NCBI GenBank assembly: GCA_040954595.2
Contig: CM082593.2
Coordinates: 7,538,043 to 7,602,042 of the forward strand
DNA from: Balanoglossus misakiensis
Lineage: Eukaryota > Animalia > Hemichordata
Direction: 5' to 3'
DNA length: 64,000 bases
The notes below the pieces were generated by a model that saw only the letters and a list, made by a program, of their open reading frames with translations, ran no database searches and was not told the origin of the DNA. Positions 10,147 to 63,094 of the stretch are shown here, one piece after another; position 1 is the first letter of the stretch; every line of letters begins with the position of its first letter. Made by a program: the position numbers and the translations under genes.

Positions 10147-10225
<79 letters not shown>

Positions 10226-11143
10226 TCTGCACTAACAGCAGAGAGTGGTCTAAGTAAAAATTAACTGTTGGTACAGTAGTTTTGGGGCGATTTCTGCCAA
10301 TTTTTACACTTTGAGACAAGGGTCTGTCTCATGCCGACAATTTCCGTAAGAAACGTGTCTTGGTGAAAAATGTGACCGACCATCAAAAATCTCTTTCCTT
10401 TAACAACTGTTGACATGTCTCCAAATAACATCACATGTCCAGTCTTATTACAGAAGGTAGTGCAGTAGTAATGGGTAAAACAAGCCGAACAGTTTTTTCT
10501 TTACATTTTCAGATAAAGATTACATCGCTCAGCTGCAGGTTGGTACCAGAGTTGTGCGGGGAAGAGATTGGTTGTCATCAGTGTTTGGGAACCAGGTAAT
10601 GTGTACAACATTTATATACTTGGTGTACTGTGGTTTTGCTGCAGATATTTTTTTCAAATACGCGTCTGAATAACCCGGGGCTGTCTTTTTAGAAAAAATC
10701 TTGTTTCTGTTGTCTTGCCCAAAATTTCCATATTTTTCTTTTTAATGATTATCAGAAATGTCAATAAGTCTTCAAATTTTGACGCTGTGTTGAAACTTTC
10801 ATGATAAACTTGTGTTTATCTCCAGAGGCTCATGCCTGAAAGGATTTGCCAGTTAGTATCTTGACGATGGCTACGTTTGAATATCAATAAGTAAAATACC
10901 AATTGAATTAATTGTCAAGGGAATCCAACATATGATTACATATCCCTGGATAAAGTAAATGGTCTGTTTTGTTATTATTGATGGGTATAATGTGGTCATT
11001 ACATTTGAATACAGGATGGAACGCCACCTGGTGAAGGGACTGTCACATACATAGGAAGCTACATTACCGTGTCATGGAAATCTGGTGGAAGCAATGACTA
11101 CCGAATGAGTGAGTCCAGCCTTGACCTAAAAATCGTCCAGTAG
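8055..11143 (+). CDS. TRIM (RBCC) E3 ligase: RING, B-box1, B-box2, coiled coil, filamin/Ig-like, MIB/HERC2. B-box1 is interrupted by a MITE in this haplotype (probable disrupted allele)
   Basis: ATG at 8055 follows an acceptor at 8039-8040. RING: CSLC..CLHTYCEPC..CPEC. B-box1: CGVC..CAECA[insertion]MCAGCVSAH..GH. B-box2: CRRH..FYCDSCEEPICLECTVVDH. Then a coiled coil and filamin-like TITNPGG..LGVYHVNISVAGFKLPGSPFNIEV (exon ends 10073). Exons 10513-10595 and 11015-11143 give VGTRVVRGRDW..GNQDG..GEGTV..VSWKSGGSNDYRM..DL, stop TAG 11141-11143. Confidence 0.85.
8420..9029. mobile_element. Non-autonomous foldback DNA transposon (MITE), Kolobok/T2-type, TTAA target-site duplication
   Basis: TTAA at 8416-8419 and 9030-9033. 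Termini AGGGGAAATCCGCTGTAGCTG...CAGCTACAGCGGATTTCCCCT, with ~250-bp near-identical inverted arms (mirror ORFs 8416-8715 and 8815-9033 encode nearly the same peptide). TTAA plus AGG..CCT ends fits Kolobok/T2 rather than piggyBac (CCC..GGG). Confidence 0.93.
10146..10225. repeat. (TTTA)n microsatellite in TRIM intron
   Basis: Direct read; it explains the spurious IYLF tail of ORF 9035-10264. Confidence 0.95.
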
Positions 11144-15800: not shown

Positions 15801-18800
15801 CCATTTTGTTTTCAAAATTTCAACAATTGAAAATGTCTTCTGGCAGATAAGACTTTTGAGCCATTTTTATATATTGAAATATTGATATGACTGATATCAC
15901 TAGCCATGCATAAAATTTCCGTGGCGATTCTCTGATTGCAGAATTGACGTCACAACTGAATAGACCAAAGTATCACTGATTCCGACAAGGGGAGCTTGTC
16001 GATCTTGATTTGAGGAAAGAAGTTCCCTGCGCTCAAAAAATCAGCGCTTTACTGTGTACTTATCATGATGACGTCATGGGAGAGACCTACCGGCAGATGA
16101 CAACAGGCAAAATGTGCTTGGGGGTCCAGAAGGGTCTTCACCAAAGTGGCAAAGTGTCGACGCAGACCTTCCACTGTGCCTTTCTGCCATAATGTTAACT
16201 GCACTATCGACATACAGCCCCTGCAAATATGTAAATAATTTTCCACTCAGTGCGAGATCTCGCGAGACTTGGTTAATTACCGTAGAGACGGGTTGCCAGC
16301 CAAGTAATACATGTCAAACTTTGTATGAATTAAGAACAGGTGCAGAGTTTAGCAAAATTTTAAACTTTTGTGCAGTTTTTCACGATGTGCCATGTGTTGT
16401 TTTTCCTTTTTCCTGTATCGCGGTGAGAATGCATTCCATTATAAACTGCTTAGCCACGCGAGATCTGGTCTATTGGGAGATGTGATATCAATTATGGACA
16501 GTGAGATTCGAAGAGACCGCTGACTGTCGTTGACTTAAAGAACTCAATTAACAAAAACGCGTAAACGATTTGGAAATAAATGTACGTGAAAATGCATTTA
16601 TGAAAAAAAGTTCTGAGTAAGTAAGTAAGAATAACGGTAGGTCGGAATATATGAATCACAACATTGTTGTAATCGAAAGAAAATAATTTTTCATGTGTAT
16701 TAAAGTCAAATGGATTCAAACACAACTGCAGTCCTACCTTTGGAAGTTTGGCGCCATAGTTATAATCGTTTGAAAGCCTTCGATCAACTCCAGGGTATCG
16801 TCGCATAGCAACACTGGGGTCACGTGGTGGACGCGTGGTAAACCCTCGCGGAATTTCAACTGTTTAAGGATGTCGATCATAAACGGGAACGCGAACGTGA
16901 TGTGCTGCTTGTCGGGTTTAATCGAGAAACTTTTGATAGCCTGGAAGGAAAATGAAATAAAATTTTAAGTAGGATTGTTATCGGGTCCAATTTTCTAATA
17001 TAGCAATTCGGAGGGCCCAGATAGTATTGTTTTATTAGACAGAAATGCACCCAGTATCGTTGTGAATGAATTTGCCTACTCACCTGCTGGACATTATCAG
17101 GCAGGCAGCCTATGACATCCATCGTCAGTGTGTTTTTGGCCTGGGATTCTGTCGGTTTGGACCTCTCGTGCAAGTCTCGTCTTTGGCGAGGTCTCGTCAC
17201 TTTCTGCTGGGCCTGTTGACACAAGCGGCATGGTGTTAGTCACTATTCGTAGCCCCAGAAAGAAAATCTGTGATTGGCTCCACACTCCATGGTAACTGTA
17301 TATCTAAATTTACACATGGATTCCCTTAAAGCGATATTCTAAATTCTGATCAATTGTTTTTGCGTATTTTGAGTTAAGTTGAAAACTGACAGGCATTTAT
17401 ACATGTAATTAGTTTACTGCCGTTATCATTTACAGTTCCGAAATGGACTCCCCGTATTAAACAATATGCACACTGTCGCCTTACCAATCTCAGCTCGGCT
17501 TCGAACACGTGGGACGGATCCACTCCCAATTCTAGCATCTCAGTTGGGATTTTTCTGGTATCAGGCCTCTGGTGGTCGTGCGTGCCACGTGACTCGAAGG
17601 TGATGGCGTCTGGACGGTCGCTCCATAAATGAACGACGGGAAAGCCGTTGTTTCCTCGACACCTGATTAAGATAACGAATACACCGTGTTGCAAAAAAAT
17701 AGCTTGAATTTTTTTTACGAAAAACGGCTTTGTTTCTGTCCTCATTGTACAAAAACATCTACTAAGTATTCTCACAATATTTCTTACCAATGCCATCGTA
17801 CTAATACCACAGCGCCCCCAGTGTGCGCTATTTGATTCCCTCATTCTGCTCGACTGCGCAACATGCCATGCAAAACCATGTTGTCATTCATTACTCTCAT
17901 TAGTCACAAACGTTTGTTCGCAAACTGGAAGTACTAATGCTACAGTGCCCTACTCATTCTATGTAAAACCATGGGGTCTAACTACTATAACGCGTACAAA
18001 AAAACAACCTATAGGGTCACAAAATCACTTACTTCCTGTGTATCAGTATGCCTTTGCAGGAAGGGTTGGGGCAGGGCTTTCCGATCTGTTTCTCTCGGAC
18101 TTTGTCGGAGATGGCCGGGCGGATGGCGATGGGTGCCCAGTCGAGCTCGTCGTCGTCGTCGGTACTGCAGGCCTCCGAACAGTTGCTGCAGACGATAACG
18201 CCGATGCACGCTTTCTTCAGGACGTATTTGTTGTGGTTGTTTGTGTACTTCATGGCCCAGCCTGGGGAAGAGAGCGAATTTGTGTTGGTTGTGTGCTATA
18301 AAGGGCGTCTCTGGCGGTGGAATTGAGGGTGGGGTGGTTTGGTGGGTGGATGGGTGGGATGGATGGACGAACGGCTGGAAGGAAGGAAGGAAGGCGGAAA
18401 GACTGACTGGGACGGACGGACGGGTGGGTCCTTAGGTGGTTTGCTGGCTGGTGTGGGGATATAGGGGAGGTTTGTCTTAACCGCCATCTTGGAAACAAGG
18501 TGCGTTGTGGGATAGAACTGGAGGGCTTTTGGAGGGGTACTTCGCAAGTACCCCTCCAAAACCCCTCAAATTCTATCCCACAACGCACCTTGTTTCCAAG
18601 ATGGCGGTTAAGACAAACCTCCCCTATAAGTATGTCACGGGGAGAAATAAACATCAACAACGACGACGACGACAATGACAAGACAAAGACCGAGACAAAA
18701 TTCCGCACCTGATACGTGTCCCTGTGCTTCGGGATCGGTCGGCCGATACTGCCTCTTCACACTGCCGTTTGCCCATTCGTCGAAGTCGTCGTACTCCACC

Positions 18801-44618: not shown

Positions 44619-47169
44619 ATGGCTAACAAGAAGGAGAATACAGAGGACGCAAGTTTGCGACACATCATCGCTAAGTTCGCGTCCAAGACCACGGCCCACG
44701 GGATACCCAATATCACGGCCAGCACAACAGTGCGCGGTCGGGTGACCTGGTCCGTCATCGTGCTTGTCGGCTTCGGCCTCTTCCTGGTGCAATCGTCGCT
44801 CTTACTGACGCAGTACCTCGACTACGGCGTCAAAGTTAAGGTAGGTGAGGTTGTGCTACCACTGAAAGCATTTCAGACCCGCACCCATACCCGGGGGATT
44901 CGAATGTGCGAAAAACAACCAAAATGCAAGTTTTTAGCAAATGTTTTTTTTTTTATCAGAGTATAAGCTTATTAAACCGATCAAAACTTTATTGGGTTCT
45001 TACAAGTAAAATACTTTCAGGAATATTTTAATGTCGAGGGCGAATTTAACCGTGCTGTTGCGACAGATCGACGATTAAAATTATTTATATACTGCAAATC
45101 TCATCAGCTACACACTGGAGTGAAAGTCGACACCGTTGGCATCGAAAAAAGAATGCCATCTGGTTTGTGATATAAATAAGTACATGTATACAGTTGCATT
45201 TGTCAAATGCATATGCAACGAATGTCGACCTTAGATACTGGTAAATAACTGATCTTTGGATAAGAGGGACTAAATTGTATGAGAGAGCTGCGTGGTTGGT
45301 CTGGTCTAATGATTCAGCCGACCCAAGCGGGAGTAAAGATTGACAAAAATTATGCAGAATGATTGTCTCAAATCCGAACTCAGATAATATCATGCAGCTA
45401 ACTCTTTGAAGTCTGCCCCACCCAGCGTGCATCAATGGAGACAGAAACACGCAATGGAAATTTGAAATTAATTTACTGAAATACGATATTTAGCTTCAGC
45501 ACGTCTGCGACATATCCGTAAAACATTTTGTGGAGCGCCAAATGTATGGTTTGATTTAAATTTGTATGTGTGTGTGTTGGTGGGACCAGGATGGGTGGGT
45601 TTATGGTTGTTGTGTATACAAAGTGTCTCGCTCTCGCTGTCATTTTCCCATGAATAATGTTTGATACAAGACACCCTTTATATCAATGTACATGTGGATA
45701 TATAGTGAATAACGTTCAACCACACACACTTTCCATCCCGCTTGTAGACACGAGAGTGAAAAAACACGCCAAAATGAATAATCGGTCTCTACCATTGATT
45801 CATTTTGGGCGAGTTTTTACTCTCATATCATACAAGCGAGATGGAAATTGTGTGTGTGGTTGAACGTCCATATACTACATATCCACACGTACAGTAATAT
45901 AAACGGTGCCTTGTATCAAACTTAATTAATGGGGGAAAAAGGCAGCGAGAGAAAGACTTTGTCTCTTTAAACTAAACTCTATTCTCACTAGGGTGGTGTT
46001 AAGCCGCCGCAAAATCTGGAATAAGGCTAATATGGGAAGTATTGAAGGATAACATTTAATGCAGTCCCTTTTGGCCCTATGGGGTATTCTGTCCAATCAA
46101 AGACCCCGAATGGATATTGTGAATTATTGATAGACAGGATGCATATCCGTCCCTTGGTCGTCTTTAAAACTTAATGAACAGAAGCTGTTTACCAATGAAA
46201 CCGAGTCGAATTATACGCCTGCTAAAACTGACAACCTATTGTACCAATTCATGGCTAGCTGATACGTCGACACACAAAACCATATGGTCTGATATCCAAC
46301 TAGAGTTTTGGCTACCTGCTTTTGAAATGCAGCTGCTAAATGGAGCATATACGCGCGGAACGACCTATAATGAGTCTCTGTGTTTGTTTCTAAGCCGAAA
46401 CACATTTCGGTGATAATTATGTGGCAATCAAATTACAATGGCTTGTTTGTGAAAGGAAACAGGTAATAGTCGTGGAAACTAAATAACAGGATATAGAAAA
46501 AATGCGCCTGTCTGAAAAAAAGAATGATTTGGTTACATTTAATAATCAGGTTACAGCGTTTCACGGGTGTAGACTTAAGATAAAACGTTGTAACCAGTAT
46601 CGACAACGCTTAATCAATTACCCGTTACTTTAGGGGATATTAAACGGGGAATACAGAGACGTCAACAAGCGAGAACTACTACAGGCTGGTAAAACTATAC
46701 CAGATAATCTGAAAATTAACAAATTGCAAGTTGGGATCTTGTCCAAATACATACCGTAGTCATCAACGAGCAACCATCCCTTTGCGATGGGGCCCTTATA
46801 TGATTATTTATAATTATCAATTATAGTAATTGGCGGATCATGATTCCCGGAGGGAATACTAACTATATGCGATTGTTCGGAGAAATAATTTGTGATAATT
46901 TTGAATTCTCACCCAAAGGAAAGAAATAAAAAAACGAATGTTCATCACCGTCACTTTGCAATTCATATATATAGTGACAACAGGTGCGAAGGTTGATATT
47001 TAGCTTCATAATTTCATAGGCCTGGCTTTTATGTTGTGTTTAACGCATTTCACGGATTATCTTCAATCTAATAAAAGCCACACAAAATAAATGGGTTTTT
47101 AATAATCAAATCACACGTCAATCTTTGAGCTTCCTGAAATAGGCCTACGTATTTTTGCAGAAAATAAAA

Positions 47170-47200
<31 letters not shown>

Positions 47201-47656
47201 TGTATGTATGTATGTATGTATGTATGTATGTATGTATGTATGTATGTATGTATGTATGTATGTATGTATGTATGTATGTATGTATGTATGTATGTATGTA
47301 TGTATGTATGTATGTATGTATGTATGTATGTATGTATGTATGTATGTATGTATGTATGTATGTATGTATGTATGTATGTATGTATGTATGTATGTATGTA
47401 TGTACATGTATGTATGTATGTATGTATGTATGTATGTATGTATGTATGTATGTATGTATGTATGTATGTATGTATGTATGTATGTATGTATGTATGTATG
47501 TATGTACATGTATGTATGTATGTATGTATGTATGTATGTATGTATGTATGTATGTATGTATGTATGTATGTATGTATGTATGTATGTATGTATGTATGTA
47601 TGTATGTATGTATGTATGTATGTATGTATGTATGTATGTATGTATGGTTGTATGTA

Positions 47657-47755
<99 letters not shown>

Positions 47756-48634
47756 ATGTATGTATGTATGTATGTATGTATGTATGTATGTATGTATGTA
47801 TGTATGTATGTATGGTTGTATGTTTGTCCTTAATACTTCCTTAGTACTTCATTTTCCTTGGCAGGTTGATCTTGTTTCGGTCTCAAGGCTAAAATTTCCA
47901 ACGGTGACTGTGTGTAACACAAACAAGATTCGAAAATCCGAGATTGAGAAGTCGAAACATGCAAGGATCAACATCGTGGATGAGGAGTTTGTACTCCCAT
48001 ATTACGGCAAGTTGGTGTTTTTGCTAGATCCCAAATTGGCATATATATCTTACACGACACAATATTAAGTGCACATCATAGAAAACACACACAAACAAAC
48101 ACGACAAAGCACTTGTCTATTTTCACATATATTCGCAGCCATCTTAACAAGGAACACACATTTTCAAAGATTTTCTGGTCTGGAATATTTACCCCTGGAG
48201 GTATAGGAGTGAGACCTACAGTCAAGTTTGAATACAAGATGCTGAGATCTGCAGAAAATATCTAACCCTAATCATACGCTTACAATACTAAGGGACGCGT
48301 AGAGATTAAAGGTCATTTCAGGTTTGAACTCGGATAATTATGGCTTGGTGTATGTTTTTACATTATCTTGATTGGATCGGGGCTTTACGTGAATAATTTC
48401 CGAGTCACATGCCTAGTTTCACACGCAAGGTTAAGTTTATTCGCCCTTTTACTTTCAGCGCCCTGTCTGCCAAGCGATTTCAGTTGCAAAAATGGCACTC
48501 TCTGCATCAAACCTTATCTTGTCTGCGATGGTATCAACCATTGTCAAGATATGAGCGATGAAGATGATTGCGTCTATGGTAAGTATCAGTTCTTTTACGC
48601 GTAGTTTCGTATCGTGGCGGGTGCTTGAATTGTT

Positions 48635-48696
<62 letters not shown>

Positions 48697-51600
48697 AGAC
48701 AGACAGATAACAAGATAGAGACATTATGCCGTGATATAAATTTATATAGTATTGGCACACAAAGGCATGACCATCTTTGTTCTTTACCGAATATTAATAA
48801 ACAATGACAAAATACAGATTTGCGAGGTTCCTGTCAGTCTTGACAGTCAAATTAACGACGGCTATGTTGTAACCCCAGGCGTTTACATTGTGTCGGCAGT
48901 GCACGTACGGAAGACTATTAATTTGTTAGGTTAGATGTGAGACAAATTAGCTTGGAGCGTGACATACGTCACTCGTGCCTTAGTAGACGATGACCTTGCT
49001 TATAATGCTTTGCAAAGAGTGAACGCGACTTTCTACAATTGCGCTTACAAATGTTGATCGGCTGTTGGGAGGAACCCAAAGCGTCACAGCGATTGTCTGA
49101 CAATCCTTAGATAACGACAAAAACGGTTATATACATGTTTATTAGTAAAACAATCCCAACCCATTTTGTTATGCCAGCGTAAAAATGAAAGCACGGACAC
49201 TGCTATATCTGACTACTTATTTTTTGTTCTGTGTCGTGAGACGATCTTCACTGGAAAACAACGAGTCATGGACATATAGTTTGCAATTTCGAGTTAGTAA
49301 ATAATGGATTAGAGCAACAACTTTAACATCGTGAATAAATAAAGTTCTAATCAGATGTCCGGGGAGCTAGCACCACAACAGTCGTTTGAACAACCAAATT
49401 GAAGGCTATTAATTATAAAGTCAAGGCTGCCATTTCAATCGACATGATCAGGCGTCAGGGGAACTATCGTCTTAATGACAATCGTTGGCGATGCGAAGGG
49501 AATGAACTACTGGTTTATATATTAAGTATGATTATATTAGAAGATAAATGAACATCCATTTTCAGGGGTCACCAGTCACGGTCAACGAGGTCGAGTAATA
49601 TGTTACAAACGATTGAAATTTGAATGATTTATAAAGATCTCCATCTTTGTAGGGTCACAAAGTTTACAATTATACACAAACTAGATATTATAGAAAAACT
49701 AGTGTTTATATGCACAAACAAGAACATTGTACCAAAACACCAATAACCGAGCATAAACCCTTAATTTTAATCAATTAACATGAATATGAGATCGAAAAAA
49801 AATCCTCTTTTGGGTATTTGCGTATACGCAGGTACGTGTGGTACTTCGCAGTTTCGATGTTCATCTGGCAGTTCCAAAGGATACTGCATTGACGCTCACT
49901 TCCAGTGTGATCGCAATGCTGACTGTTACAACGGCGAAGACGAAGAAAACTGTGGTACGTATACCACCATTTGGTCAAGTGTTTAGATCTTTCATGCGTC
50001 TATAGCATATGTTAAGTAACGCCCATAAGCTCCATCTGCTTAAAGGGACAGTAGCAGTAACTTCTGATGATCATGTCACTATTTTTTGTTCAACTCAACA
50101 ACTAGTGTTTCTTATTCTACTCCCTTAAACATACATACGTGCCAAGTATTGAGCATCTCAACAAAGTGTGTAGGCCAGTAAAAGTGCCAAGTTATTGTTG
50201 ATATTTAAATTTTAGTCCGGACTTAAATTTAGTCGTCAACAATAACATTGCTGGAAAAGTATATATTGACTGTGGTTACAAGCTTAATACTTGGCATAGT
50301 GTACGGAGTAGAAAAATAAACTGTAGGTGACACGCAGAAAAAATATACCTGAAAGTGCTATCAAAAGTTACAGGTACTATGCCTTTAAAGTTCCTAGACT
50401 CTTTTGCAGATTGCAGTGTGGGTCCGGAGGAGAACTTGATAAAATGCGTATTCATGCAGTGTCTTGTAACAGATTCATATTACCTTACCACTTCCCTTAT
50501 TTTATCGCATAACCAGCATGCAACGAAGACGAATTCAAATGTAAAGATTCAAGCGGCAGTTGCATTGCGCGGGACATGGTATGTGATGGCATCACGGACT
50601 GTGTAGACGGTAGCGATGAACACTACACTACATGTGGTAATTATGTTTGTTTCGCTCGTTTAGAGTGTGTGCCATTAGCGTCGCGAATGATTTTAAAGAT
50701 CTCCGAATATGTGCAGATGTAAGTTCGATTTTTCATCCAGAGCTGATACAAATCTAATGGCTATTGGACAAGCTGTACAGTGGAGAGTTCGCCATGTAGT
50801 TCAGATACACGGGATATTTATTGTTGTCGACGTTTTTGATTTTTTTCTCTCTACAGCAATGATGACTTTCAAGAAGACTTCACATAAAGGTCTTTTCCCC
50901 AAAGAGGCAGTGAAAGTTCCCAACGTGTCTGTTGAATACTGCGCACTCTCGTGCCTGCAGTACAGTATGTTCGTGTGTTTATCGTTTGATTATGACACTG
51001 AAGAGGCGAATTGTTATCTCAACCCTGGAAACGTGCAGACGATTGTCTTTTTCCTGTCAAACAAGGACAACAACGATTACTACGAAAGATCTAACCACGG
51101 TAAGCACATTTGCAATAAACAGTAACTGCGCCGTCATCATATTGGTCATAACTGACATGGTTGGTAAGGGTTGTTTTCAAGGGTGGTGGTCGTTCTTTCT
51201 GCGGCTGCGTGGGGGTCCCTTACGATACAGTACTGTTGCCAGCAAGTCAAAACATTCGCAAAGTGTAACTGCTACAATGTACATCGTTGCAAACAACGTG
51301 ATTGTTGCTTGTATTGCACTGTACAACATGGCATACATAATGCCTCGTTACATTTTATCACATTTCCCATTTACTTTGACATAACATATATTGGTTGACG
51401 CGGTCCCCCCTGAACATTGAGAACAATGCCAGCTGTGTGTTGATAAACAAAGAAAGTCGCACATGCGCAGTTCATACGCCCCCTCTCTTTAACTAAGTTG
51501 CTATACATTACACTTTTAGTATTCCCCATTCTAGACTTCGGCTCCCTTAGCGGCAACACGGCACTGAAGTTCCAACATTTTCCGAATGCGATGATTTCAC

Positions 51601-51995
51601 CAATCAAGGAGCCTTCCGTGGTGACAACAGAAGAGTGTGCGCAGTTGTGTTTAGACGAAACCTCGTTCAATTGCCAGGCTTTCACGTACCAGCCACAGAC
51701 AAGTCGATGCTGGTTGCACGAGGCCAGCTATTCTCTAAATGGCTTGCCCATGATTACGGACTCAAGATATGATTACTACGAACGCAGAGGTAATGTTTAC
51801 ACTGTAGTTGATTATGTCATGTAATACCAACCAAATGAGTTTTTATGTAAGTGCTAATGTATCAAATATTTAATTGCTTTCAATCCAAACGTTTTTTTGG
51901 ATATAAAAATGATATCTATGACCTAAATTCCAATCTCTGAGCTTCCTGAAAGAGGCCTACATATTTGTGTAGAAATAAAAGTATATGTATATGTA

Positions 51996-52028
<33 letters not shown>

Positions 52029-53111
52029 ATGTATGTATGTATGTATGTATGTATGTATGTATGTATGTATGTATGTATGTATGTATGTATGTATGTATGT
52101 ATGTATGTATGTATGTATGTATGTATGTATGTATGTATGTATGTATGTATGTATGTATGTATGTATGTATGTATGTATACTATGTATACTATGTATACTA
52201 TGTATACTATGTATACTATGTATGTATGTATGTTGTGTATGGCATAGTTTGATTAGTTGGAATACGGTTTAAAAAGTGTAAAAAGTGAAAACGATGTCAT
52301 TTGAGTTACACATTTTTAACAGCATGTTTAACACTGCTTTTTTGCAGGCATAGAGTGTTATGCACTCGAAGACGGAACGGATTACCGAGGACGCGTATTC
52401 GTTTCATCACTGGGATATCACTGTAAAACTTGGAGTGCCTTAGATCCATCAATATACCAATATACTCCGTCTACTACGAAGCAGAAGGGACTTGGTGACC
52501 ACAATTATTGCAGGAATCCGAACGGAGAGTCTGGGCCTTGGTGTTACACTGAATGGGGGCAGGAACACTGCGCAGTGGGCTTTCCCAAATTGAAATGTCT
52601 GACGCAGGAACCAACTCTGCAACAGGCGCCAGGGACGACACCGCACCCGCAGCCCACGACGGGGGAGACCGACTGCGCCTCGGAGCTTGACGGCAGCGAC
52701 TACCGCGGGAACATCTCGGTCACCGAGTCGGGCCTCACCTGTCAGAAATGGACGAGCCAGTTCCCGCACACCCACAAGTTTGTTGTGGACCCGGACGTTG
52801 GCATCGGAGATCACAATTTCTGTCGCAACCCGGACCGGTCGTCGATCAGGCCGTGGTGCTACACGATTGCCGCCTGGAATAGGTGGGAGTATTGTGACAT
52901 CACTGAAGAAATGTGCGACAGCGCACGTGAGTTACCCAACCCGACATCATAATGCGTTTTGGTCAATTGTCTGTATATTCTTAAAGAAAAAATTCTGGAG
53001 ATTTGAGTACACTTTTGACGTAATTAAAGTGGCATGCCTCTATCAAAATTTACCAAAGACCTTTGTGGCATGGGTCAGATTTTACACCGCCTCCACAGCA
53101 GCAGCAGCAGC

Positions 53112-53163
<52 letters not shown>

Positions 53164-53179
53164 TCATCATCACCACCAC

Positions 53180-53233
<54 letters not shown>

Positions 53234-56200
53234 TTTATAGTTATTTGTTCTATTCAAATCTTAATGTTATATATGATCAGCTGGCCGTAATTGACAGCAT
53301 GTGCTCATAGCAATATCTTCTCTCCTATCCAGTCGAAATAAGGAGGAAGAGAGAATGTTTTTCCGACCCACATGGATCCGATTACCGGGGAACGAAATCA
53401 GTGTCGTTGGCGGGTATTGCCTGCCAGAAATGGACAGAGCAGGCGCCGCACCAACACTCAAGAACCCCGGATTGGTATATCGATGCTGGTCTGGGTGACC
53501 ATAATTACTGTCGGAATCCAGACAATGCGGATAACCCGTGGTGTTACACTGTTGATCCAGATACAAGATGGGACTGGTGTGACGTAGGAGAGCCGGACAT
53601 CACCTGCAGAATGCTGGGTAAGTCTGACTCTACGAAAGCTTTTAAAAGGTCTAGTGCTTAGCATGCTTAGTCCTATGTTTTTCGCTTCCCGAGATAACGA
53701 CCATAAGACCGCTCAACGGAATGTGAAAAGGCTCAAGCAGACGAAGATGACGTCACCGTAGTCAATCACCTACCTCGACCTACCACTGATTGGCTGTTAA
53801 TGACATGCGTGTTGTGTTATTCATATTCATATATACTCATCATCTATGCATAATAAGTTTAAATCAGGGTCCATGTTTACATATAGTTACACCGTCAACA
53901 CTTCTAGTTTAAATTACCAGTAATACTATGTATGGTTAAAAGGGCATGGAACAGTCTTTAAATAACCATGTGGAGGCAACCACTTAAATCTGCCATTGAC
54001 TGGAACTCACTGTAACTATATGGCTGAATTTGCACGAGTGAATATACTTTAGAACAACATTTTCCTTTGTTCTTTTCTGCACAGGAATTGAGTGTTTTTA
54101 CCAAAGGCGGGCAACTGACTATCGCGGGTACCGGAGCACAACCTCGTCCGGTCGGAAGTGTCAAAAGTGGACAACGCAGTCCCCGCACACGCATTCTTTC
54201 GATCCCGACGTTTACGGGGAACACGGGATAGGCGACCACAACTACTGCCGCAACCCATCCGGGGAAGAACCCACCGCCTGGTGCTTCACGACTGACCCGG
54301 ATGTCAGAAGTGAAACCTGCGATGTCAATATGGACTCGGAGCACTGCATAACAGGTAATTCTTTTAGTGGCCATGGCACTGTGAGGCCGCATGCGAGGGG
54401 CATATTTCTTAGTTCGTATTTTACTATGTCCCTGCAGGTCTTGCGATGCAAGATCATCGTGTGCAACTGTCGGGCCTTTTAGCACAGTCGGCCATGTTTG
54501 TCCTGTGTCACGTGAGAATGCCCTCCCATATACTGCCTAGTCACGTGAGGTCTCGCAGTGTCTCGCGGAGTCCGGAAAATGGTCTATGTATGCCTTATTT
54601 CATTTCAAGAACTAATCTGAAGCATGAACCCAAAATCGTTAATTGTGTTGTTAAGTATACCTTTCTATCTAAAGAGATGCCTTACTTTATTATAAAACTG
54701 TTAGACACACATCGCGTTTTGGAACAGATTATTTTAAGATCTTTGGATTATTTTATCTTAATGTATCACCAGGGCGCGTTATAGATGAATTCAGCGCTTC
54801 GGGCGCATTGATGAACTATCTCGAATATCTTGACTACGACCAGCAATACCAGGACATCAGTGTCACGGAGTGCGCAAGACTGTGTCTAGAGTCCAACAGT
54901 TTCTTCTGCATGTTTTTCGACTATTTCGCCCCAAACAACACTTGCTGCTTGAGTTCCAACGTGACTGCCGAGAACACGAGCCAGGAACCAACCTTGCAAG
55001 CGGATGGTATCAGGTACAGCCGGATTATTGATGGTGAGTGCACCAAAACAGTACCATCCTACAGTGCATCTACTAGTATTGGTTGGGCGAATGTATGCCC
55101 TTCACACACACGAATAAACTCATGGTCACAAACCAGTTCCGAATCATCTAAAAGCAACGCTCATTTGCTGAAAGCACAGACATCATGCGAACCACCTGAA
55201 AACTTCTTCCAAGACTCAAGTTCAATTGAAATTTTATAAACAGGTATAGATGTCTTGTGGGTTATATTATAGACAAAAACTGGAATACATATATGAGCTT
55301 ATATTAATAGTCACATTCTGTGAGAAAAGTGGGATTTTCCAACCTAAAATACTTGCTGTGGGTTTCTGTGATTACCATATCAAATAAACCTTGTAGTTCT
55401 ACAAATTCCCAGTTGCGCGTTGTCCTGCCATGCAGGGTCTATTTTCCACACATAAAATCATCATTTAGTGTGTTTATGTGTCTTGGATTTATCACAATCA
55501 CAATCGAGCGGTCTGTTTTAAATCACTGAATTTGCCAATGATATGTCCATTTATTCATTTATATCACCGCAGACTCTGAAATGGATGTGGTGAAATTTCA
55601 ACAGCATCCAAATCGGAACATGCTGAAGAGCGGCTATCAGAAACTAGTGACGGCGGCAAATCTACCGGACTGTGTCACAGCGTGTCTGTCACTAGAGATC
55701 TTCAATTGTTTGTCCCTCGACTTCTGTCCGTCTTGCTCGACGTGTTATCTGTACGAGCAAGCGGCGGCTACAGCCGCTGATGAAATAACAGAGGATATCA
55801 GTTATGTTCACCTAGACAGGATAGGTAAACATCGCCTCTGTCTGTCTGTCTGTCTGTCTGTGTCTGTCTGTCTGCCTGCCTGCCTGTCTGTCTGCCTGTC
55901 TGTCTGTCTGTCTGTCTGTCTATTCACTTTGAATTGTATTGTTGCCAAATTCAACACTCTTCGACAAAATTTATCAAACAGACACCAACTTTAGGAATGC
56001 CAACTTAATTGACAGGTCATCATCAATTGCGAATACCAGCAGGTAACGCAAAACACTTGTTACAATCATAAGCAAACCATTCTGGGGATTAGTATTAAAC
56101 TTCATTGATTTCCATCAATCTTCTTCTGCCTTTAGATTTTGCGTCGATCAAAGATAGAAATGGTCCAGATGTTTCTAATGTGATGTTCGCTTTTGATGAG

Positions 56201-59200
56201 TACGGTTTGCGTCATTTACCGGGCCATACAGACAGAGTTTTCCATCGCTCGACCGAAGCTGACTGCGCCGCACGCTGCCTCAAAGAGAACGACTTCCACT
56301 GCCTGACGTTTGAATATGTTATCTCGACCAGAAAATGCATCCTGAGCAGTGAAAGTCACTTAACATTGTCAATACAGTTAGAAGACGCGGTGGCCATCCA
56401 AACAAAGTACTATGTTAGACGGGACATTGCCAAAATAGGTAATGAAAATTATATGTATGTGTGTGTCCTTTATGCGTGTGTGTACACATACATGTATGTA
56501 TGTATGTGTGTATGTATGTATGTATGTATGTATGTATGTATGTATGTATGTGTGTATGTATGTATGTATGTATGTATGTATGTATGTATGTATGTATGTA
56601 TGTATGTATGTATGTATGTATGTATGTATGTATGTATGTATGTATGTATGTATGTATGTATGTATGTATGTATGTATATGTGTGTATGTATGTATGTATG
56701 TATGTATGTATGTATGTATGTATGTATGTATGTATGTATGTATGTATGTATGTATGTATGTATGTATGTATGTATGTATGTATGTATGTATGTATGTATG
56801 TATGTATGTATGTATGTATGTATGTATGTATGTATGTATGTATGTATGTATGTATGTATGTATGTATGTATGTATGTATGTATGTATGTATGTAGGTATG
56901 TATGCATGTATGTAGGTATGTACAGTAGGTATGTATGTATCTATGTATATCTATGTATGTATCTATATGTGTATGGCATAGTTTGAATAGCAATTCTATG
57001 TGTATTTAATCTCGATTCTGGAATCTGAACCAGGGTGAACTTCTGGAAGGGACCTGGGCATTATATGAAAAATCAATCTATAGTACATGTACTCTGTTTT
57101 CAGATGACAACAATAGCTGCCCTGATGAGTTCGAACTCTGTGGCTCGGGGGAATGTGTCTACCGGTATGCCGTATGTGACACCATTCCAAACTGTAGCGA
57201 TGGCAGCGATGAAGTCGACTGTGTTGTAAATGGTAAAGGTCAGAACCCTTTTTTCGCCAAAATACTGGCGTGTTTTTCACGTTAGGTTGATTTCTACATT
57301 ACAGAACTCTTCTCTGCTGATGTGTTATAAAATATAAACATGACATATTACTATAATTTGGATTAAAGTAATATGTCATCTTCATAATCTGTAACAGCCG
57401 TTGTACATGCATTGTTACTTTTATTTTTTCGCTGTTTTACTACACAAGTTCGTATATTTCTATTAGTCTATTTACAAAGACAAGACATCAATATAAACGT
57501 GCAAAGATAATCGCGTGTTTGTTGTATTTACTCAACGTTTTATAGGGGGCATGTGCAAAGCACAGTCAACCTTCCGTACACAGACACATGGGCTATTGTT
57601 TTTAGGTATAGAAGTGCCCACGTCAAGAAATATTGGTCTTTAAACCAAATTATCATTTTTTACATTCGACAATGGTTATTTTTCTTCTTCTGACAGACAC
57701 GACAGATGACAATAGTTACAGCGACGTTGAGAAGTTTTTACACATACCCGGCGTCACTCCGGCGATTGTGGAGGACTTTGAGAGGAATTATTACAAAGAC
57801 AATGGTTTCAGTGCGGTCAAAGGTGAAGTTCCTCCGGATTGGTATGGCTTTAAGACGTTCAGCGCGACTCCCGACTACAGCGATCTTCGGAATGTTTTGA
57901 AACTGAACAGGGATGAAATCAAGGAGTATGGACACCAAGCGGAGGATTTTATACTGCAGTGCGCGTATGACGAAACAACTTGCAGTCCGAGGTAAGATAT
58001 GAAAACATTATATTTTTTTTCGATATTCAGAATGGGTGAAAAGAAGACCTAGGGCTTTTTCGCAAAAAATGGAGATTTGTGCAGTTCATGTAATTATCAT
58101 GCATTAATTTTACCGTTCACAGTCGATGCTCTGTTGCGTTTAATGTGTATGGAAGCTTAACTTAAAAGATGGCGATGTATTTGGTTGACACATTGCTGTA
58201 GTGACGAACCATGAAAATTAATCCAATAACTATTACATGGTATTACATGGTTGGGTTTTCGTCGGCGGCTCAGACTTTGAGTGATGAGCAATTACAGACT
58301 GACTACCAACAACTCCCTATAGAGGAAATACTGCAGTTCAAAACTGAATTCAATGTGTTCGAGGCGTGTAGGTGTTTCTGTTTTCACGGTCCTGTACATT
58401 TCAGTGATTTTGCGGTTTTTCAAGATGACCAATACGGCAACTGTTTCAAGTTTAACCACGGCAAGAACGACTCTTCCATTCGATACACGAACAAACAAGG
58501 ATCGCACTACGGTGAGTGGGACAATGTCTACGTTTCCTTACAGTCAGGAACGATGGTGATATTTCTCTAGAGGCGCCAGAAGTTTCAACGCCAACTTTGC
58601 TAAGATGTACTTTTTTCCCCTCAAAATGTCTCTGTTAGGACCCACAAGGACTATATACTGTAAAACGGGTTATTTTCGCGAGCAATAAATTTTCGCGAAA
58701 TACGCAAAAATACGTAAAAATAAAAAGTCGCGTAAAATGTTTTCTGGGGATATAACGATGTAATTAGTGAGATACGAGAAAGCGAAAATTAATCCTTGCG
58801 TAACCGTTGCCTCTCCTGATATCGCTAAAATTTCATGTCGCGAAAATAACCCGTTTTACAGTATTTTCTGTATTATCTACTCGCGAGACTTGGTTAATTT
58901 TGTTTTATGTTATTTATAACTATCTGCGAGCAAAATATTTTCTGCTCAATACATTTCTCACACAGGTTTGAAGTTGACCTTGTTTTTAGAGCAAGACGAA
59001 TATATCAGCATTTACGGACGCAACGCCGGGGCGCGGTTAATCATCCTGCCTGATGACGTCACTGTTTTCCCTCAAGACGAAGGAATAACAGTTATGCCTG
59101 GCACTGTGACGTCTGTTGCGGTCAAGGAGGTGCGGGTGTGATATTCATCCTTATTCTTGTTTCCTTGAAAAATATTAATAAACCTTATATTGTAATTAGC

Positions 59201-59244
59201 GTGTGTGTTTAAGTATGGGACATAAGGTCGCCCCGCTTTTAATT

Positions 59245-59293
<49 letters not shown>

Positions 59294-61947
59294 CTCTCTC
59301 TCCCTCCCCCTCTCTCTTTTATTCCTCGGACGCTTACAATGACTATGTTTATGAGTACATTTTTGTTTTTGACAGCTTCATCTCACATTTTTTCCTTGAA
59401 TCAACAGAGACACACGTTAAGGAAATCCCATCCGTATGGAGTGTGTAGTCAAGAAGAGCTAAGTGATAACTTATATGGTGATGGATATTCATACACTATG
59501 CTCGTGAGTATAGACAGCCATCTAACTATTAATTTAGTGTGGCAGTGCGTAATTACACATGGGAATGGCACTACGGTATTGTATATGGAAACATTCAACC
59601 GTTAGTGTTATTAAAACGTGCTCATATTAAAACAAAATGCGGGTGTGTACTTGGGCCATAAGTATGCCATTTCGGGGCACCATTTGACGTAGTGATGAGC
59701 GCGGCCTCTGTCGACACAGTGTCTGTTTGAATATGTCTCTCTATCCAACCAACCAACCAACCAACCCATTACTAGCCTCAATCTATCCACCCACCCATCC
59801 ATCCGTCCCTTGATCAAGTATCCATCATAGACACTTTGTGTTAACTTCTGCACCTCCCCATGAGCAGGCTTGCAGGCAGCCGTGTTTCCAGCGCCACCTG
59901 TCGAAGTACTGCGGATGCGTGGACTCGTATATCACGGGAGAACCACAGTGTCTTATGACCAACATCACACAAGGTATGTTGGATAACCTATTGTTATGCA
60001 AATCACACTATGACAAATTTGACAGCTAAATACTAGTACATACAATGCATAAATGCATCCATCCATCCATATATCAATCCATCGTTTTCCCGTTTTACAC
60101 TAATTAAACTATTCCAAGACTCTTGAGTATTCTGCCAATATAATTTCGTCGAAATTAATGTATGTCACGTGATTACCCATTCACAGATATGTGTAAACAG
60201 TTCATACGATATCTGTTTCAATCAGAGCGTATTGACTGCGACTGCCGCATCCCATGCAGGTACGTCATTACAGCAATTTTACTCGCCTACAATTAATCCT
60301 ATATGTGTTTTCTACTGGTTTTAGAAGTACATATGTATAAGCAATATCCTTTATCACGTTCATTGACGCATTTGAGTTAAATTGCAAATTCTGATTCTTC
60401 TGTGTTCTGTTACAAGGGAGAAGTGGTACTCAAAGACTATTTCACAGTCACTATGGCCAGCCAGTGTTCATTTGGTGAGATATCATATTAGTAGTTTCAG
60501 TGAACGTGATTAACCAATACAGTAACGTTTTGAGTCGAGACATTTAAATAAAACGAGTAATCATTATTTTTTGCATTTTCATTGATTTTCGGTATTTTCG
60601 TACATTTGTACTCACTATTCACGTTGTATGGGAAACCTAAATTCACACATCACACAGTATGATCGAAGATGTATTTCATATTTATGAATTAAATTCTTCG
60701 ATTTTGATCATCATGGAAAATGCATCGAACGACAGAGGGCATAATTCATGCTAATACATTAATTTTCACTCACAGTCTCACTTGTTGAAGACCATACACT
60801 CTTTAAGTCCAAAGACGAAGGACATCAATGACGCCGAGTCAGTCAGGTAAAAAATATATACACACTATATTATATAATCAAGGGAGGTAAAGCCTGAAGC
60901 CGTGCATGTATCCCTAACAACATCCATATTGTATGGTATGGAGCTACAGTCATGTATTACTAGACGGGTGGGATGTAACTTAAGTTTGCAGGAAAGGAAA
61001 TATTTCAAAGAAGGAATGGCTAACGTTATACTTTGATCATGCCATCAGGTTGAATCTCGTCCAGATTGAAGTTTATTTTGAACAGCTGATAGTCGAAAGC
61101 ACAACAGAGCACCCAGCGTATGGGGTAAGAGTAATTGTATCACCCTTCATCTCGTGGTTATTGTCCTAGCCTTAACCTAACCTCTTACTTTCCGTAACCT
61201 CTTCAATTGCCTACAGACACTTACAAGAAACTCACGTACGGTTGACAAAAGATCTCGTTACTTTATCCGAGCAGATTTACAAGTGCCTCGGGTTTCACAA
61301 CAAATCTCGTTACTCGCCCGAGCAGATTAACTACTGTCTTGGGTTACTCGTAAACCTAGTTGATTTAGAAGTGTTGTAGGTTTACAAGATTATTTGTGCA
61401 TACATACTGCTTTCGATTATATCGTAACCAGGGGTGATGTGTGATTGTTTTTCAGTAATTCATTTCTTGTTCGACTCCCTATACCATGTCAAACTGTTCT
61501 GCCCTCTGGTTGTCAACCCGACGTGTATATGCAAATTACATAAATATGCAAATTATATGCATCAAGTATGCAAATTATATGCATCAAGAATGCAAATTCT
61601 GATTACGTCAGAACCAAGCCAGACCACGGGAGGGGATCAAAAGACCTATATATTGAGTATGTTTAACATTTTCATAAAACACACACTATTCCTTGCAGGG
61701 TGAAGATTTTCTCAGTGATATCGGCGGGACGCTGGGCCTTTACATCGGCCTCTCAGTCATCACGGTGGCCGAATTCATCGAACTGGTGGCCGTGATGATC
61801 AGACACGTTCACCATTACCGCAAAGCCGGTCGCGTTGACACCAAAAACAAGCAAACCAACCCACCTATTCCGGATTACTTTTCAGGGGCATTCGCTTACC
61901 CCAGCTTCAAAAGTATCAGGCCAGATATAACCATTGAAGACGTCTGA
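44619..61947 (+). CDS. DEG/ENaC (amiloride-sensitive sodium channel family) subunit with LDLa, PAN/apple and kringle modules in the extracellular loop, ~1532 aa, 24 exons
   Basis: Exons 44619-44840, 47865-48006, 48459-48578, 49832-49954, 50517-50636, 50857-51099, 51535-51789, 52348-52926, 53333-53617, 54085-54354, 54773-55033, 55573-55824, 56136-56438, 57104-57232, 57697-57991, 58405-58511, 58966-59129, 59408-59503, 59868-59973, 60187-60259, 60417-60474, 60776-60846, 61049-61124, 61699-61947 are phase-consistent (4599 nt). ENaC hallmarks: TTAHG gating motif, TM1, [35 protein letters not shown], Cys-rich thumb (CRQPC..CGC..CDCRIPC), IEVYFEQL, and [25 protein letters not shown] (TM2, GxS filter). 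Confidence 0.93.
45619..45970. mobile_element. Degenerate foldback Kolobok-type MITE in DEG/ENaC intron 1
   Basis: Inverted arms (TTTGATACAAG/CTTGTATCAAA; ACGTTCAACCACACACAC/GTGTGTGTGGTTGAACGT; TTTCCATC.CGCTTGTA/TACAAGCG.GATGGAAA). The right end is GACTTTGTCTCT-TTAA. Same family as 20233-20403. Confidence 0.75.
47172..47823. repeat. (TATG)n/(TG)n microsatellite, ~650 bp
   Basis: Direct read. Confidence 0.97.
48459..50636 (+). CDS. Three LDL-receptor class A exons of the DEG/ENaC gene
   Basis: [36 protein letters not shown]; [31 protein letters not shown]; [29 protein letters not shown]. Confidence 0.92.
48635..48707. repeat. (AGAC)n microsatellite
   Basis: Direct read. Confidence 0.9.
50040..50388. 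mobile_element. Older TTAA-flanked Kolobok-type MITE in a DEG/ENaC intron
   Basis: Left end TTAA-AGGGACAGTAGCAGTAACTTCTGAT; right end reverse-complemented TTAA-AGGCATAGTACCTGTAACTTTTGAT. Inner inverted TTCTACTCC/GGAGTAGAA and TGCCAAGTATT/AATACTTGGCA. Related fragments near 22734-22820 and 30900-30935. Confidence 0.7.
50857..51789 (+). CDS. Two PAN/apple-domain exons of the DEG/ENaC gene
   Basis: [33 protein letters not shown]; [32 protein letters not shown]. Confidence 0.9.
51983..52240. repeat. (TATG)n/(TG)n/(TATACTATG)n microsatellite
   Basis: Direct read. Confidence 0.95.
52348..54354 (+). CDS. Four kringle domains (three exons) of the DEG/ENaC gene
   Basis: Four copies of C...DYRG..S..G..C.KW...G.GDHN(Y/F)CRNP....WC(Y/F)T. 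Confidence 0.93.
53096..53233. repeat. (CAG)n(CAA)n(CAT)n intronic trinucleotide repeat
   Basis: Direct read; lies between kringle exons. Confidence 0.93.
54773..57232 (+). CDS. Three PAN/apple exons and one LDLa exon of the DEG/ENaC gene
   Basis: [22 protein letters not shown]; [19 protein letters not shown]; [27 protein letters not shown]; then [35 protein letters not shown]. Confidence 0.9.
55838..55920. repeat. (TCTG)n microsatellite
   Basis: Direct read. Confidence 0.9.
56452..56975. repeat. (TATG)n microsatellite, ~520 bp
   Basis: Direct read. Confidence 0.97.
58658..58861. mobile_element. ~204-bp MITE with TA target-site duplication (Tc1/mariner-type)
   Basis: TA-CTGTAAAACGGGTTATTTTCGCGA...TCGCGAAAATAACCCGTTTTACAG-TA: a perfect 24-bp terminal inverted repeat with internal GCG(A/T)AAA subrepeats. 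Confidence 0.88.
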
Positions 61948-63094
61948 TACAGTTCACAGCAATATCTTTTACTACCATTTTTACGACAAGCATCGATGTA
62001 ACATATTTATACGGAATACTGTCCTACGTTTAGGCATATGATATCAGTTGACATGTTATGTGTACCTATACCTTATGTTCGATTGATTACAATTATTTTA
62101 TACGACAATTATTTGATACAGTCGCCAATTTTCCACAAAGCGACCACATTCTGTGGGTTTTAAACATATTATTAAATACTAGTCCGCATTCATAATATTT
62201 ATTTATACTGTAAATTATTTACATTATATATCTACTCTATACATTTTAAATTTATATTTGTGAAGTTACAGTTTATTATGTCTATGTTATGAAAATTATG
62301 TATGAAATAAATATCTGTGGATGATCGACTACCACTTGTCAAGAGCACCTTTTGTTACCTATGCATTTTCATGCTTTGATTATTAATACTGAAACATAAT
62401 TTTGAAGAAAAAATATCAAACAAAATATAATATAAACGTATTGCATTTAATTCAATTTTAATATTTATAAGATAGACCCTAATTTTATTGAAATGGCGAA
62501 GATCTTAGTTTACCGGAAGCAAAGTATTTTTCCTTCAGTATTTCGCACTTTTAACGGGGGGGGGGGGGGTATGCATCATCGGGGTGGAACGATGAACACG
62601 CGCAATTCAATTAATATATGGGAAAAAATCAGTGACTCACCCGATTACCCGGTTTGGTATCTCTGTAAGGTGTAGTGGTGAAGGTGATGTATTCCTGGAC
62701 AATGTCAAACACACATAAATCGTTCACATTCCGTCGGGTATCCACTATTCCCTGTCCTAAATTATCCGTATCCATGGCCACACTGGTAGACACGCTAATG
62801 GTCACTAGAGCGCGCTGTAGAGCTGACTTCAGAAACTCGTCACTTACTTACCGTTGTTTTTCGGATGTACAGAAGACGCATGACCGTGCTTTTCCTCTTC
62901 CATTGTCTTTCCACAGCAAAGATATGTTATCACACTGCGCGCAGGCACATGAAGTTTTCCATCCTATCCTAATACTGCACTTTATGTTCGGTTTTGTCAA
63001 AATTCACGGGAAAATATCGCTCAACATCAGTCCTCCTGATCCGCGCAAATAATATCCGACTCCGAGTGGGCTGAACTCGATTCACTTCACTGCA

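What the first reader, a model, noticed from the sequence alone, without database searches (positions are those of the whole stretch)
44619..61947. Giant mosaic DEG/ENaC channel with a ~980-aa LDLa x3, PAN x2, Kringle x4, PAN x3, LDLa cassette in its finger region
Seen: an otherwise complete ENaC subunit (HG motif, TM1, FPxVTVCN, thumb cysteines, TM2 GxS filter) with 13 extracellular interaction modules between [10 protein letters not shown] and [11 protein letters not shown]. Established: this interval is the variable finger region that controls gating. PAN followed by tandem kringles is the architecture of the HGF/MSP/plasminogen heavy chain, and LDLa repeats are Ca2+-dependent ligand-binding modules. 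EGF-repeat DEG/ENaC fusions are known (C. elegans egas genes), but I do not know a characterised kringle/PAN-bearing channel. Inference: a receptor-channel gated by protein or glycan ligands, matrix tethering or proteolysis.
Basis: partly seen in the sequence, partly recalled or inferred. Interest (0 to 1): 0.85.

Follow-up and report, generated by a model that had tools for sequence, protein, structure and literature searches.

The report
Sodium channel with swappable receptor cassette
This gene, likely from an acorn worm, is predicted to encode an ENaC-type sodium channel with 13 binding modules inserted where related channels are gated, and relatives in acorn worms, starfish, brittle stars and feather stars fill the same slot with other modules, so these channels likely act as receptors for large outside molecules.

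Summary
Twenty-four exons (44619-61947) join into one 1532-aa frame without internal stop: a complete DEG/ENaC subunit with a 980-aa LDLa3-PAN2-kringle4-PAN3-LDLa cassette on 12 phase 1-1 exons. One RefSeq Saccoglossus model has this order and three Ptychodera models add one kringle, so a nested gene is unlikely; no RNA test was possible.

The larger result is a family. In 42 of 42 full-length relatives the cassette starts with LDLa; in 41 of 42 it starts 38-44 residues after FPxxTxCN. Nine module kinds fill this slot in acorn worms and echinoderms. The first LDLa is better conserved (55%) than the channel core (45%). The slot is predicted to match ENaC's GRIP interval, just before a Trp that aligns weakly with FaNaC's gating residue W167.

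Most likely the cassette binds a macromolecular ligand and gates the channel through the finger (0.45, untested). The furin site and the kringle lysine sites are not conserved. Ten literature searches found no description. Verdict: new variant of a known kind.

The parts
44619..44840 (+). Exon 1: start codon, HG motif, TM1
   Evidence: Pfam ASC 3.4e-08; aligns with P0002-4 and P0008
47865..48006 (+). Exon 2: [10 protein letters not shown] and first finger helix; ends at a GC donor, phase 1
   Evidence: Pfam ASC 4.3e-06; junction LPYY|APC shared with 4 of 4 homologs aligned
48459..48578 (+). Exon 3: LDLa-1, the family-wide conserved base module (His in place of one acidic position)
   Evidence: Pfam 5.4e-12; 92% identical to P. 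flava and 73% to Saccoglossus
49832..49954 (+). Exon 4: LDLa-2
   Evidence: Pfam 1.5e-10
50517..50636 (+). Exon 5: LDLa-3
   Evidence: Pfam 1.5e-11
50857..51099 (+). Exon 6: PAN-1
   Evidence: Pfam 3.8e-10
51535..51789 (+). Exon 7: PAN-2
   Evidence: Pfam 1.9e-11
52348..52926 (+). Exon 8: kringles 1 and 2 with a Pro/Thr-rich linker
   Evidence: Pfam 1.8e-39, two stretches
53333..53617 (+). Exon 9: RRKR furin-like motif (aa 605-608, this gene only) and kringle 3
   Evidence: Pfam 5.3e-24; motif scan
54085..54354 (+). Exon 10: kringle 4
   Evidence: Pfam 3.1e-21
54773..55033 (+). Exon 11: PAN-3
   Evidence: Pfam 2.3e-07
55573..55824 (+). Exon 12: PAN-4
   Evidence: Pfam 4.8e-06
56136..56438 (+). 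Exon 13: PAN-5
   Evidence: Pfam 4e-09
57104..57232 (+). Exon 14: LDLa-4, last cassette module
   Evidence: Pfam 6.2e-09; 69% identical to both P0004 and P0008
57697..57991 (+). Exon 15: distal finger with the invariant Trp (PPDW) and [11 protein letters not shown]
   Evidence: 74-77% identical to P. flava proteins; Trp invariant in 50 of 50 rows; aligns with FaNaC W167 at E 0.001
58405..61124 (+). Exons 16-23: beta-ball, palm, thumb, knuckle (58405-58511, 58966-59129, 59408-59503, 59868-59973, 60187-60259, 60417-60474, 60776-60846, 61049-61124)
   Evidence: Open frame with AG/GT sites; alignment to homologs; core half 70-72% identical to P. flava and 61% to Saccoglossus
61699..61947 (+). Exon 24 coding part: TM2 with Ser at the degenerin position, GLS filter, tail without PPxY, stop codon
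   Evidence: Pfam ASC 3.7e-07; motif table
62306..62311 (+). AATAAA, candidate polyadenylation signal
   Evidence: no AATAAA in intron 2 or intron 14, though each has one ATTAAA

Best explanation
The gene is predicted to encode one subunit of an ENaC/FaNaC-side DEG/ENaC cation channel whose 13-module cassette, inserted in the finger, likely binds a large extracellular ligand and thereby likely changes how often the channel opens. Shown: the exon chain, the modules, the intact channel motifs, the same order in orthologs, one slot shared across the family, and the unusual conservation of LDLa-1. Predicted: a normal DEG/ENaC fold with the cassette leaving between the first and later finger helices. 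Inferred: three cassettes stand above a trimer; the variable PAN and kringle modules pick the ligand (a secreted protein, mucus or matrix glycoprotein); LDLa-1 and the last LDLa act as a fixed base; binding moves the Trp-bearing finger helix, then the thumb and wrist, as in FaNaC and ENaC. New specificities would arise by swapping phase 1-1 exons in the slot.
For: Same order in Saccoglossus P0008 and, with five kringles, in P. flava P0002-4; these lineages split about 373 Ma (PMC4729200 passage). 13 of 13 modules were compared: 12 match the same-order module best in P0004 at 47-92% (kringle 2 is the exception). One slot: first module LDLa in 42 of 42, starting 38-44 aa after FP in 41 of 42, ending 110-125 aa before GNC in 41 of 42. 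Cassette type follows channel clade. LDLa-1 is 54.9% identical over 20 subfamily representatives, against 44.6% for the core and 36.3% for middle LDLa pairs. The model of relative P0009 (pLDDT 82.7) matches ENaC gamma (Z 33.6, rmsd 2.8, 349 aligned) and FaNaC (Z 33.1, rmsd 3.3, 395 aligned), above ASIC1 (Z 30.5). GRIP lies between finger helices 1 and 2 (PMC6197857 passage). This corner gates the whole superfamily (PMC11026163 passage). The invariant Trp aligns with Aplysia FaNaC W167, whose Val mutant is not activated.
Against: No current, ligand or transcript has been measured for any member that I found. The FaNaC finger match is weak (E 0.001) and finger helices are hard to align even within FaNaCs. 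By profile score ASIC1, ENaC gamma and FaNaC are nearly tied (298, 289, 287 bits). 0 of 4 window kringles and 8 of 46 examined have a full lysine site. A long flexible chain may couple poorly to the gate. PAN modules drift fast (28-41% to Saccoglossus). The four EGF-bearing EGAS channels of C. elegans gave no currents in oocytes (PMC10424705 passage). The fold was run on a relative with nine LDLa modules, not on this protein.
Confidence: 0.45

Rival explanations
1. The cassette does not gate. It localises, clusters or caps the subunit, or the subunit is a silent modifier, while the pore opens to a small peptide, ions or a partner subunit.
For: The distal finger resembles the peptide-pocket helix of FaNaC. 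EGAS channels are silent alone. Many paralogs coexist in one genome, which would allow heteromers.
Against: The modules sit in the known gating corner in 41 of 42 full-length relatives and never after the GNC motif, apart from one doubled model. LDLa-1 is more constrained than the core.
Confidence: 0.23
2. The cassette is a tether to extracellular matrix or mucus and makes the channel a force or flow sensor, like nematode degenerins.
For: Matrix tethering of mechanosensitive DEG/ENaCs is proposed at this same corner. MEC-4 and MEC-10 lie in the ENaC-side clade with uncharacterised ambulacrarian channels (PMC10507113 passage). Family modules such as TSP1, CUB, F5/8 and HYR are typical of adhesion proteins (recalled). 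12 N-glycosylation sequons.
Against: Nine module kinds in clade-specific orders suggest many distinct partners more than a generic anchor. No degenerin-type cysteine-rich domain was seen, though I did not align to MEC-4.
Confidence: 0.18
3. The cassette is an inhibitory, GRIP-like domain released by proteolysis; kringle and LDLa modules recruit the protease.
For: Same interval as GRIP. The window protein has RRKR at 605-608; 6 of 6 starfish proteins have a mid-cassette polybasic site; module-free relatives P0061 and P0064 carry polybasic sites at both ends of a long insert.
Against: Only 16 of 62 proteins have any R-x-K/R-R in the interval and 0 of 5 full-length ortholog records do. ENaC activation needs two cuts in one subunit (PMC8791634 passage); the window protein has one.
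Confidence: 0.11
4. The module exons belong to a separate or nested transcript, or are normally skipped, and the giant protein is a prediction artefact.
For: All 12 exons are phase 1-1, so skipping keeps the frame. In P. flava one copy is annotated in two halves, P0007 (plasminogen-like) and P0001, on contigs of equal length. 15 of 59 module-bearing relatives lack the N-terminal anchor motif.
Against: Four full-length single models in two species keep both junctions. Introns 2 and 14 are only 452 and 464 nt, and no Met-led leader is in frame with exon 3. 42 relatives join both channel halves through a cassette.
Confidence: 0.03

Closest known systems
Vertebrate ENaC alpha/beta/gamma (SCNN1A/B/G; PDB 6WTH, 9BLR)
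   Same: DEG/ENaC fold (best structural match, Z 33.6), HG motif, GxS filter, and an extra domain in the finger between helices 1 and 2.
   Different: GRIP is a small beta-strand domain released by two cuts; here 980 aa of 13 folded modules with no conserved cleavage pair, and no PPxY motif in the tail.
FaNaC, FMRFamide-gated channel (Aplysia, PDB 7YVB)
   Same: Tied best structural match (Z 33.1); the only solved chain whose sequence match extends over the DWxxF finger motif (E 0.001).
   Different: FaNaC has no inserted modules and binds a tetrapeptide in the finger itself; peptide gating is untested here.
C. elegans EGAS-1 to -4 (EGF plus ASC domain channels)
   Same: DEG/ENaC fused to repeated extracellular modules; function unresolved (no currents in oocytes).
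   Different: EGF rather than LDLa, PAN and kringle. I did not compare EGAS sequences, so their insertion site is untested.
Uncharacterised RefSeq models XP_070544098, XP_070545383, XP_070545385 (Ptychodera flava) and LOC144356731 (Saccoglossus kowalevskii)
   Same: Same gene subfamily and module order; 61% and 48% identity (preliminary model).
   Different: P. flava has five kringles. These are automatic annotations named 'uncharacterized', with no study found.
Plasminogen / HGF / MSP heavy chain
   Same: A PAN domain followed by tandem kringles; window kringle 3 matches plasminogen, apo(a), HGF and prothrombin kringles at similar single-domain scores.
   Different: Two PANs before and three after, flanked by LDLa, no protease domain, no full lysine site in the window, and the whole lies inside a membrane channel.

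Membership tests
DEG/ENaC superfamily (Pfam ASC) | Two TM helices around a large extracellular domain | tested here: met
   Two hydrophobic segments only; ASC hits at both ends
DEG/ENaC superfamily (Pfam ASC) | HG motif, FPxxTxCN, cysteine-rich thumb, GxS filter | tested here: met
   [13 protein letters not shown], 10 thumb Cys, GLS
DEG/ENaC superfamily (Pfam ASC) | Palm, beta-ball, thumb, finger, knuckle fold | tested here: met
   Tested on relative P0009: Z 33.6, rmsd 2.8, 349 aligned to 6WTH_C
DEG/ENaC superfamily (Pfam ASC) | Trimeric, amiloride-sensitive Na+ current | not testable with these tools
   Needs electrophysiology; three subunits exceed the size limit of the complex tool
ENaC proper (SCNN1) | GRIP domain with paired polybasic cleavage sites | tested here: not met
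   One RRKR in the window, none in 5 of 5 full-length ortholog records
ENaC proper (SCNN1) | C-terminal PY motif | tested here: not met
   No PPxY in the tail of the window protein or of P0002-4 and P0008
ENaC proper (SCNN1) | Orthology to vertebrate SCNN1 in a tree | not tested
ASIC | Histidine after TM1 (H73, named a core determinant in PMC10507113) | tested here: not met
   No His in the post-TM1 stretch of exon 1; the position mapping is recalled, not aligned
FaNaC/WaNaC | Aromatic peptide pocket in the finger | tested here: inconclusive
   W167 and F170 align with the invariant W and near-invariant F at E 0.001; ligand untested
Plasminogen-related growth factors | Signal peptide, PAN, kringles, serine-protease-like domain | tested here: not met
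   No protease domain in Pfam scans of the exons or orthologs; cassette lies between two TM helices
Lysine-binding kringles | D-x-D/E after RNP plus R-W/Y/F before the last Cys (definition recalled; register checked against plasminogen K4) | tested here: not met
   0 of 4 in the window; 8 of 46 examined, including one kringle in 2 of 3 P. flava paralogs and 2 of 4 in Saccoglossus

The most novel reading that the evidence does not exclude
Acorn worms and echinoderms have a family of receptor-channels built like a plug-in system: an ENaC-type pore, a fixed LDLa adaptor at the gating finger, and exon-shuffled binding cassettes (kringle, PAN, discoidin, CUB, TSP1, SRCR, HYR, ShK-like) that let proteins, glycans or microbes open an ion channel directly. 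That would be a class of ionotropic receptors for macromolecules, using the slot that vertebrate ENaC uses for protease gating.
Probability: 0.3. Interest if true: 0.9.

Novelty: new variant of a known kind. Interest (0 to 1): 0.72.

Why it matters
DEG/ENaC channels are known to open to protons, short peptides, proteases or force. A channel whose finger carries exchangeable protein-binding cassettes would add gating by large ligands. The family is a natural domain-swap series: many paralogs share one slot, so chimeras can test directly how the finger corner couples to the pore, an open point also for ENaC's GRIP domain and for tethered mechanosensors. It also gives an identity to some of the uncharacterised ambulacrarian channels that phylogenies list beside ENaC.

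Tried and rejected
No whole genome is held for this window. No RNA holder was listed for the kringle exon, so no reads were laid; this says nothing about expression. The sensitive search over 1.84 billion representatives never ran because its queue was full, so the range outside deuterostomes is open. A complex prediction of LDLa-1 against the two channel halves of P0009 gave no verdict (score 0.00). ESM Atlas gave only plain ASC clusters at scores of 0.77 and 0.82, leads only. Exon 15 alone found no channel in the PDB sequences. tblastn of the 66 relatives found no second channel gene elsewhere in the window. Earlier findings: nothing by sequence or by the full word set. PMC4012085 was not held. 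The careful tree did not finish; both trees are quick trees with SH-aLRT only. Rejected: the GT donor at 48010 (wrong phase; homologs support the GC donor at 48006), the first tries for exons 19, 20 and 23 (corrected), a hidden fifth kringle (intron 8 is 406 nt and largely simple repeats), capture of a whole plasminogen/HGF gene, and conserved furin gating.

Full report
Observation. The sequence at 44619-61947 resolves into 24 exons on the plus strand. Joined by coordinates they give 1532 aa with a single terminal stop; all acceptors are AG, 22 of 23 donors are GT and one is GC. Pfam on 18 exons confirms the order ASC, ASC, LDLa x3, PAN x2, kringle x4, PAN x3, LDLa, then ASC. The cassette is aa 122-1101 on 12 exons, each phase 1-1. 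The channel parts are intact: TTAHG, TM1, [21 protein letters not shown], 10 thumb cysteines, Ser at the degenerin position (position recalled), GLS filter.

One gene or two. A search with exon 15 found 5 proteins among 42 candidates. Three are 1613-1620 aa RefSeq models of Ptychodera flava with the same order and five kringles. Saccoglossus P0008 has exactly the window's order. Identity over the whole alignment is 61% to each P. flava model and 48% to Saccoglossus, computed on the model before two small exon corrections, and both cassette junctions are conserved. The window is therefore likely from an enteropneust (inference). Against: one P. flava copy is annotated as two halves, P0007 and P0001, the homologs are predictions whose RNA support I could not see, and the symmetric exons could be skipped in frame. 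No transcript test was possible.

A family with one slot. Two more searches with the channel half (46 hits of 3296 candidates and 20 of 3081) brought the total to 66 stored proteins, some of them isoforms or older models of the same locus. Local profiles seeded from Pfam matches show modules in 59 of 66. Of these, 42 have both anchor motifs, 15 only the C-terminal one and 2 neither. In the 42, the first module is LDLa in 42, starts 38-44 aa after FP in 41, and the last module ends 110-125 aa before GNC in 41; 33 end with LDLa. Nine module kinds occur in the slot: LDLa, kringle, PAN, F5/8, CUB, TSP1, SRCR, HYR and ShK-like. Carriers come from three acorn worms, three starfish, one brittle star and two crinoids. 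Three Branchiostoma records join F5/8 and kringle to the channel half, without LDLa or TM1 and with a shorter spacer (82 aa). The searches need shared words, so missing groups are not shown to lack such genes.

Trees. On the C-terminal core (58 rows, 9 partial or doubled records left out; 36 rows; quick trees) the LDLa-bearing proteins form one group at 95% SH-aLRT. The window protein groups with P. flava P0001-4 (99-100) and then with P0008 and P0050 (99-100). Cassette types follow clades, several with members from two or three acorn worm species. Kringles change state 5 times and PAN 4 times on the 36-row tree, and one clade of the acorn worm kringle-bearers is rejected (p-AU 0.0006; the group was named after I had seen the first tree). 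Modules were thus gained or lost repeatedly in an old slot.

A conserved base. LDLa-1 is 92% identical to P. flava and 73% to Saccoglossus, above the core half (70-72% and 61%). Over 20 chosen subfamily representatives it averages 54.9%, against 44.6% for the core, 46.7% for LDLa-2, 37.6% for the last LDLa (16 rows) and 36.3% for middle LDLa pairs. It lacks the Asp before the fifth cysteine in 17 of 20, whereas 55 of 76 middle modules keep it; that this Asp binds calcium is recalled. This pattern fits a structural adaptor more than a variable binding module (inference).

Where the slot lies. The window protein and its orthologs exceed the size limit for folding, so I folded P0009 (910 aa, nine LDLa) with a 50-row alignment. 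It scores pLDDT 82.7 and places short helices at 94-109, then the modules, then helices at 513-575 and 593-599. The best structural matches are ENaC gamma (Z 33.6) and Aplysia FaNaC (Z 33.1), tied, above ASIC1 (30.5); Foldseek ranks FaNaC and ASIC1 about equally. ENaC's GRIP domain lies between finger helices 1 and 2 (PMC6197857, passages), so the slot is predicted to be the same interval. A profile of the post-cassette finger matched FaNaC 154-222 at E 0.001, the other channels only from position 62 on. The Trp that is invariant in 50 of 50 rows falls on W167, whose Val mutant is not activated by FMRFamide (bioRxiv 10.1101/2023.02.01.526556, passages). In FaNaC, ligand pulls the distal finger and thumb to open the pore, and this corner serves gating across the superfamily (PMC11026163, passages). 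The match is weak and is a lead.

Mechanism. I put 0.45 on ligand capture by the cassette with coupling through the LDLa base and the finger, 0.23 on a non-gating role, 0.18 on a mechanical tether, 0.11 on proteolytic release and 0.03 on artefact. Proteolysis is weakened because RRKR occurs in the window only and in 0 of 5 full-length ortholog records, and 16 of 62 proteins have any such site, while ENaC needs two cuts (PMC8791634, passages). A plasminogen-like lysine-binding role is weakened by 0 of 4 full sites in the window, although the matching kringle has one in 2 of 3 P. flava paralogs and Saccoglossus has two.

What is in print. Ten full-text searches (listings seen) returned no paper on LDLa-, kringle- or PAN-bearing DEG/ENaC channels. 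In four DEG/ENaC phylogeny papers (PMC9822975, PMC9949801, PMC6827283, PMC10507113) and the hemichordate genome paper (PMC4729200) the words LDL and kringle occur 0 times in the main text (passages). PMC10507113 lists uncharacterised ambulacrarian channels beside ENaC. EGAS channels gave no currents (PMC10424705, passages). I read no supplements, and most subscription papers are not held, so a mention there or in InterPro architecture lists is possible.

Verdict. [quoted passage not shown] The gene itself is already present as uncharacterised models in relatives; the fixed slot, the conserved LDLa base and the range of cassettes were not found in print. New variant of a known kind, interest 0.72.

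Noticed in passing
window 48006-48459: Intron 2, at the entry to the cassette, has a GC donor (GCAAGT), a weaker site that could favour regulated splicing.
   Followed up: partly
window 7929-10261 (+): TRIM-like gene (RING, B-box, coiled coil, filamin) whose first B-box region is interrupted by a fold-back of about 620 nt: arms 8415-8543/8906-9034 (98%) and 8531-8670/8770-8909 (89%). Inserted element, inverted duplication or assembly error.
   Followed up: partly
window 2418-2927 and 3316-6186 (+): A Death-domain frame followed by a 957-codon open frame with no Pfam match.
   Followed up: partly
window 18460-18628: Near-perfect hairpin with 83-nt arms, 96% complementary, 3-nt loop.
   Followed up: no
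window 47119-47820, 51930-52260, 56440-56990: Three long (TGTA)n arrays in introns of the channel gene; the first two share a 5' flank and the last two a 3' flank, suggesting a microsatellite-carrying repeat.
   Followed up: no
P0061 (G. talaboti) and P0064 (P. flava): Module-free relatives carry a long low-complexity insert in the same slot with polybasic sites near both ends, a GRIP-like double-cut layout in invertebrates.
   Followed up: partly
P0020, P0029, P0030, P0031, P0040, P0043 (starfish): 6 of 6 starfish members have a furin-like site in a mid-cassette linker.
   Followed up: partly
P0021, P0023, P0047 (three acorn worm species): Long N-terminal extensions with an FN3-like match before TM1, in addition to an LDLa cassette; a real subfamily or mis-joined models.
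   Followed up: no
P0063, P0065, P0066 (Branchiostoma): F5/8 and kringle joined to the C-terminal channel half without LDLa or TM1, outside the LDLa clade: possibly an independent use of the slot, or truncated models.
   Followed up: partly
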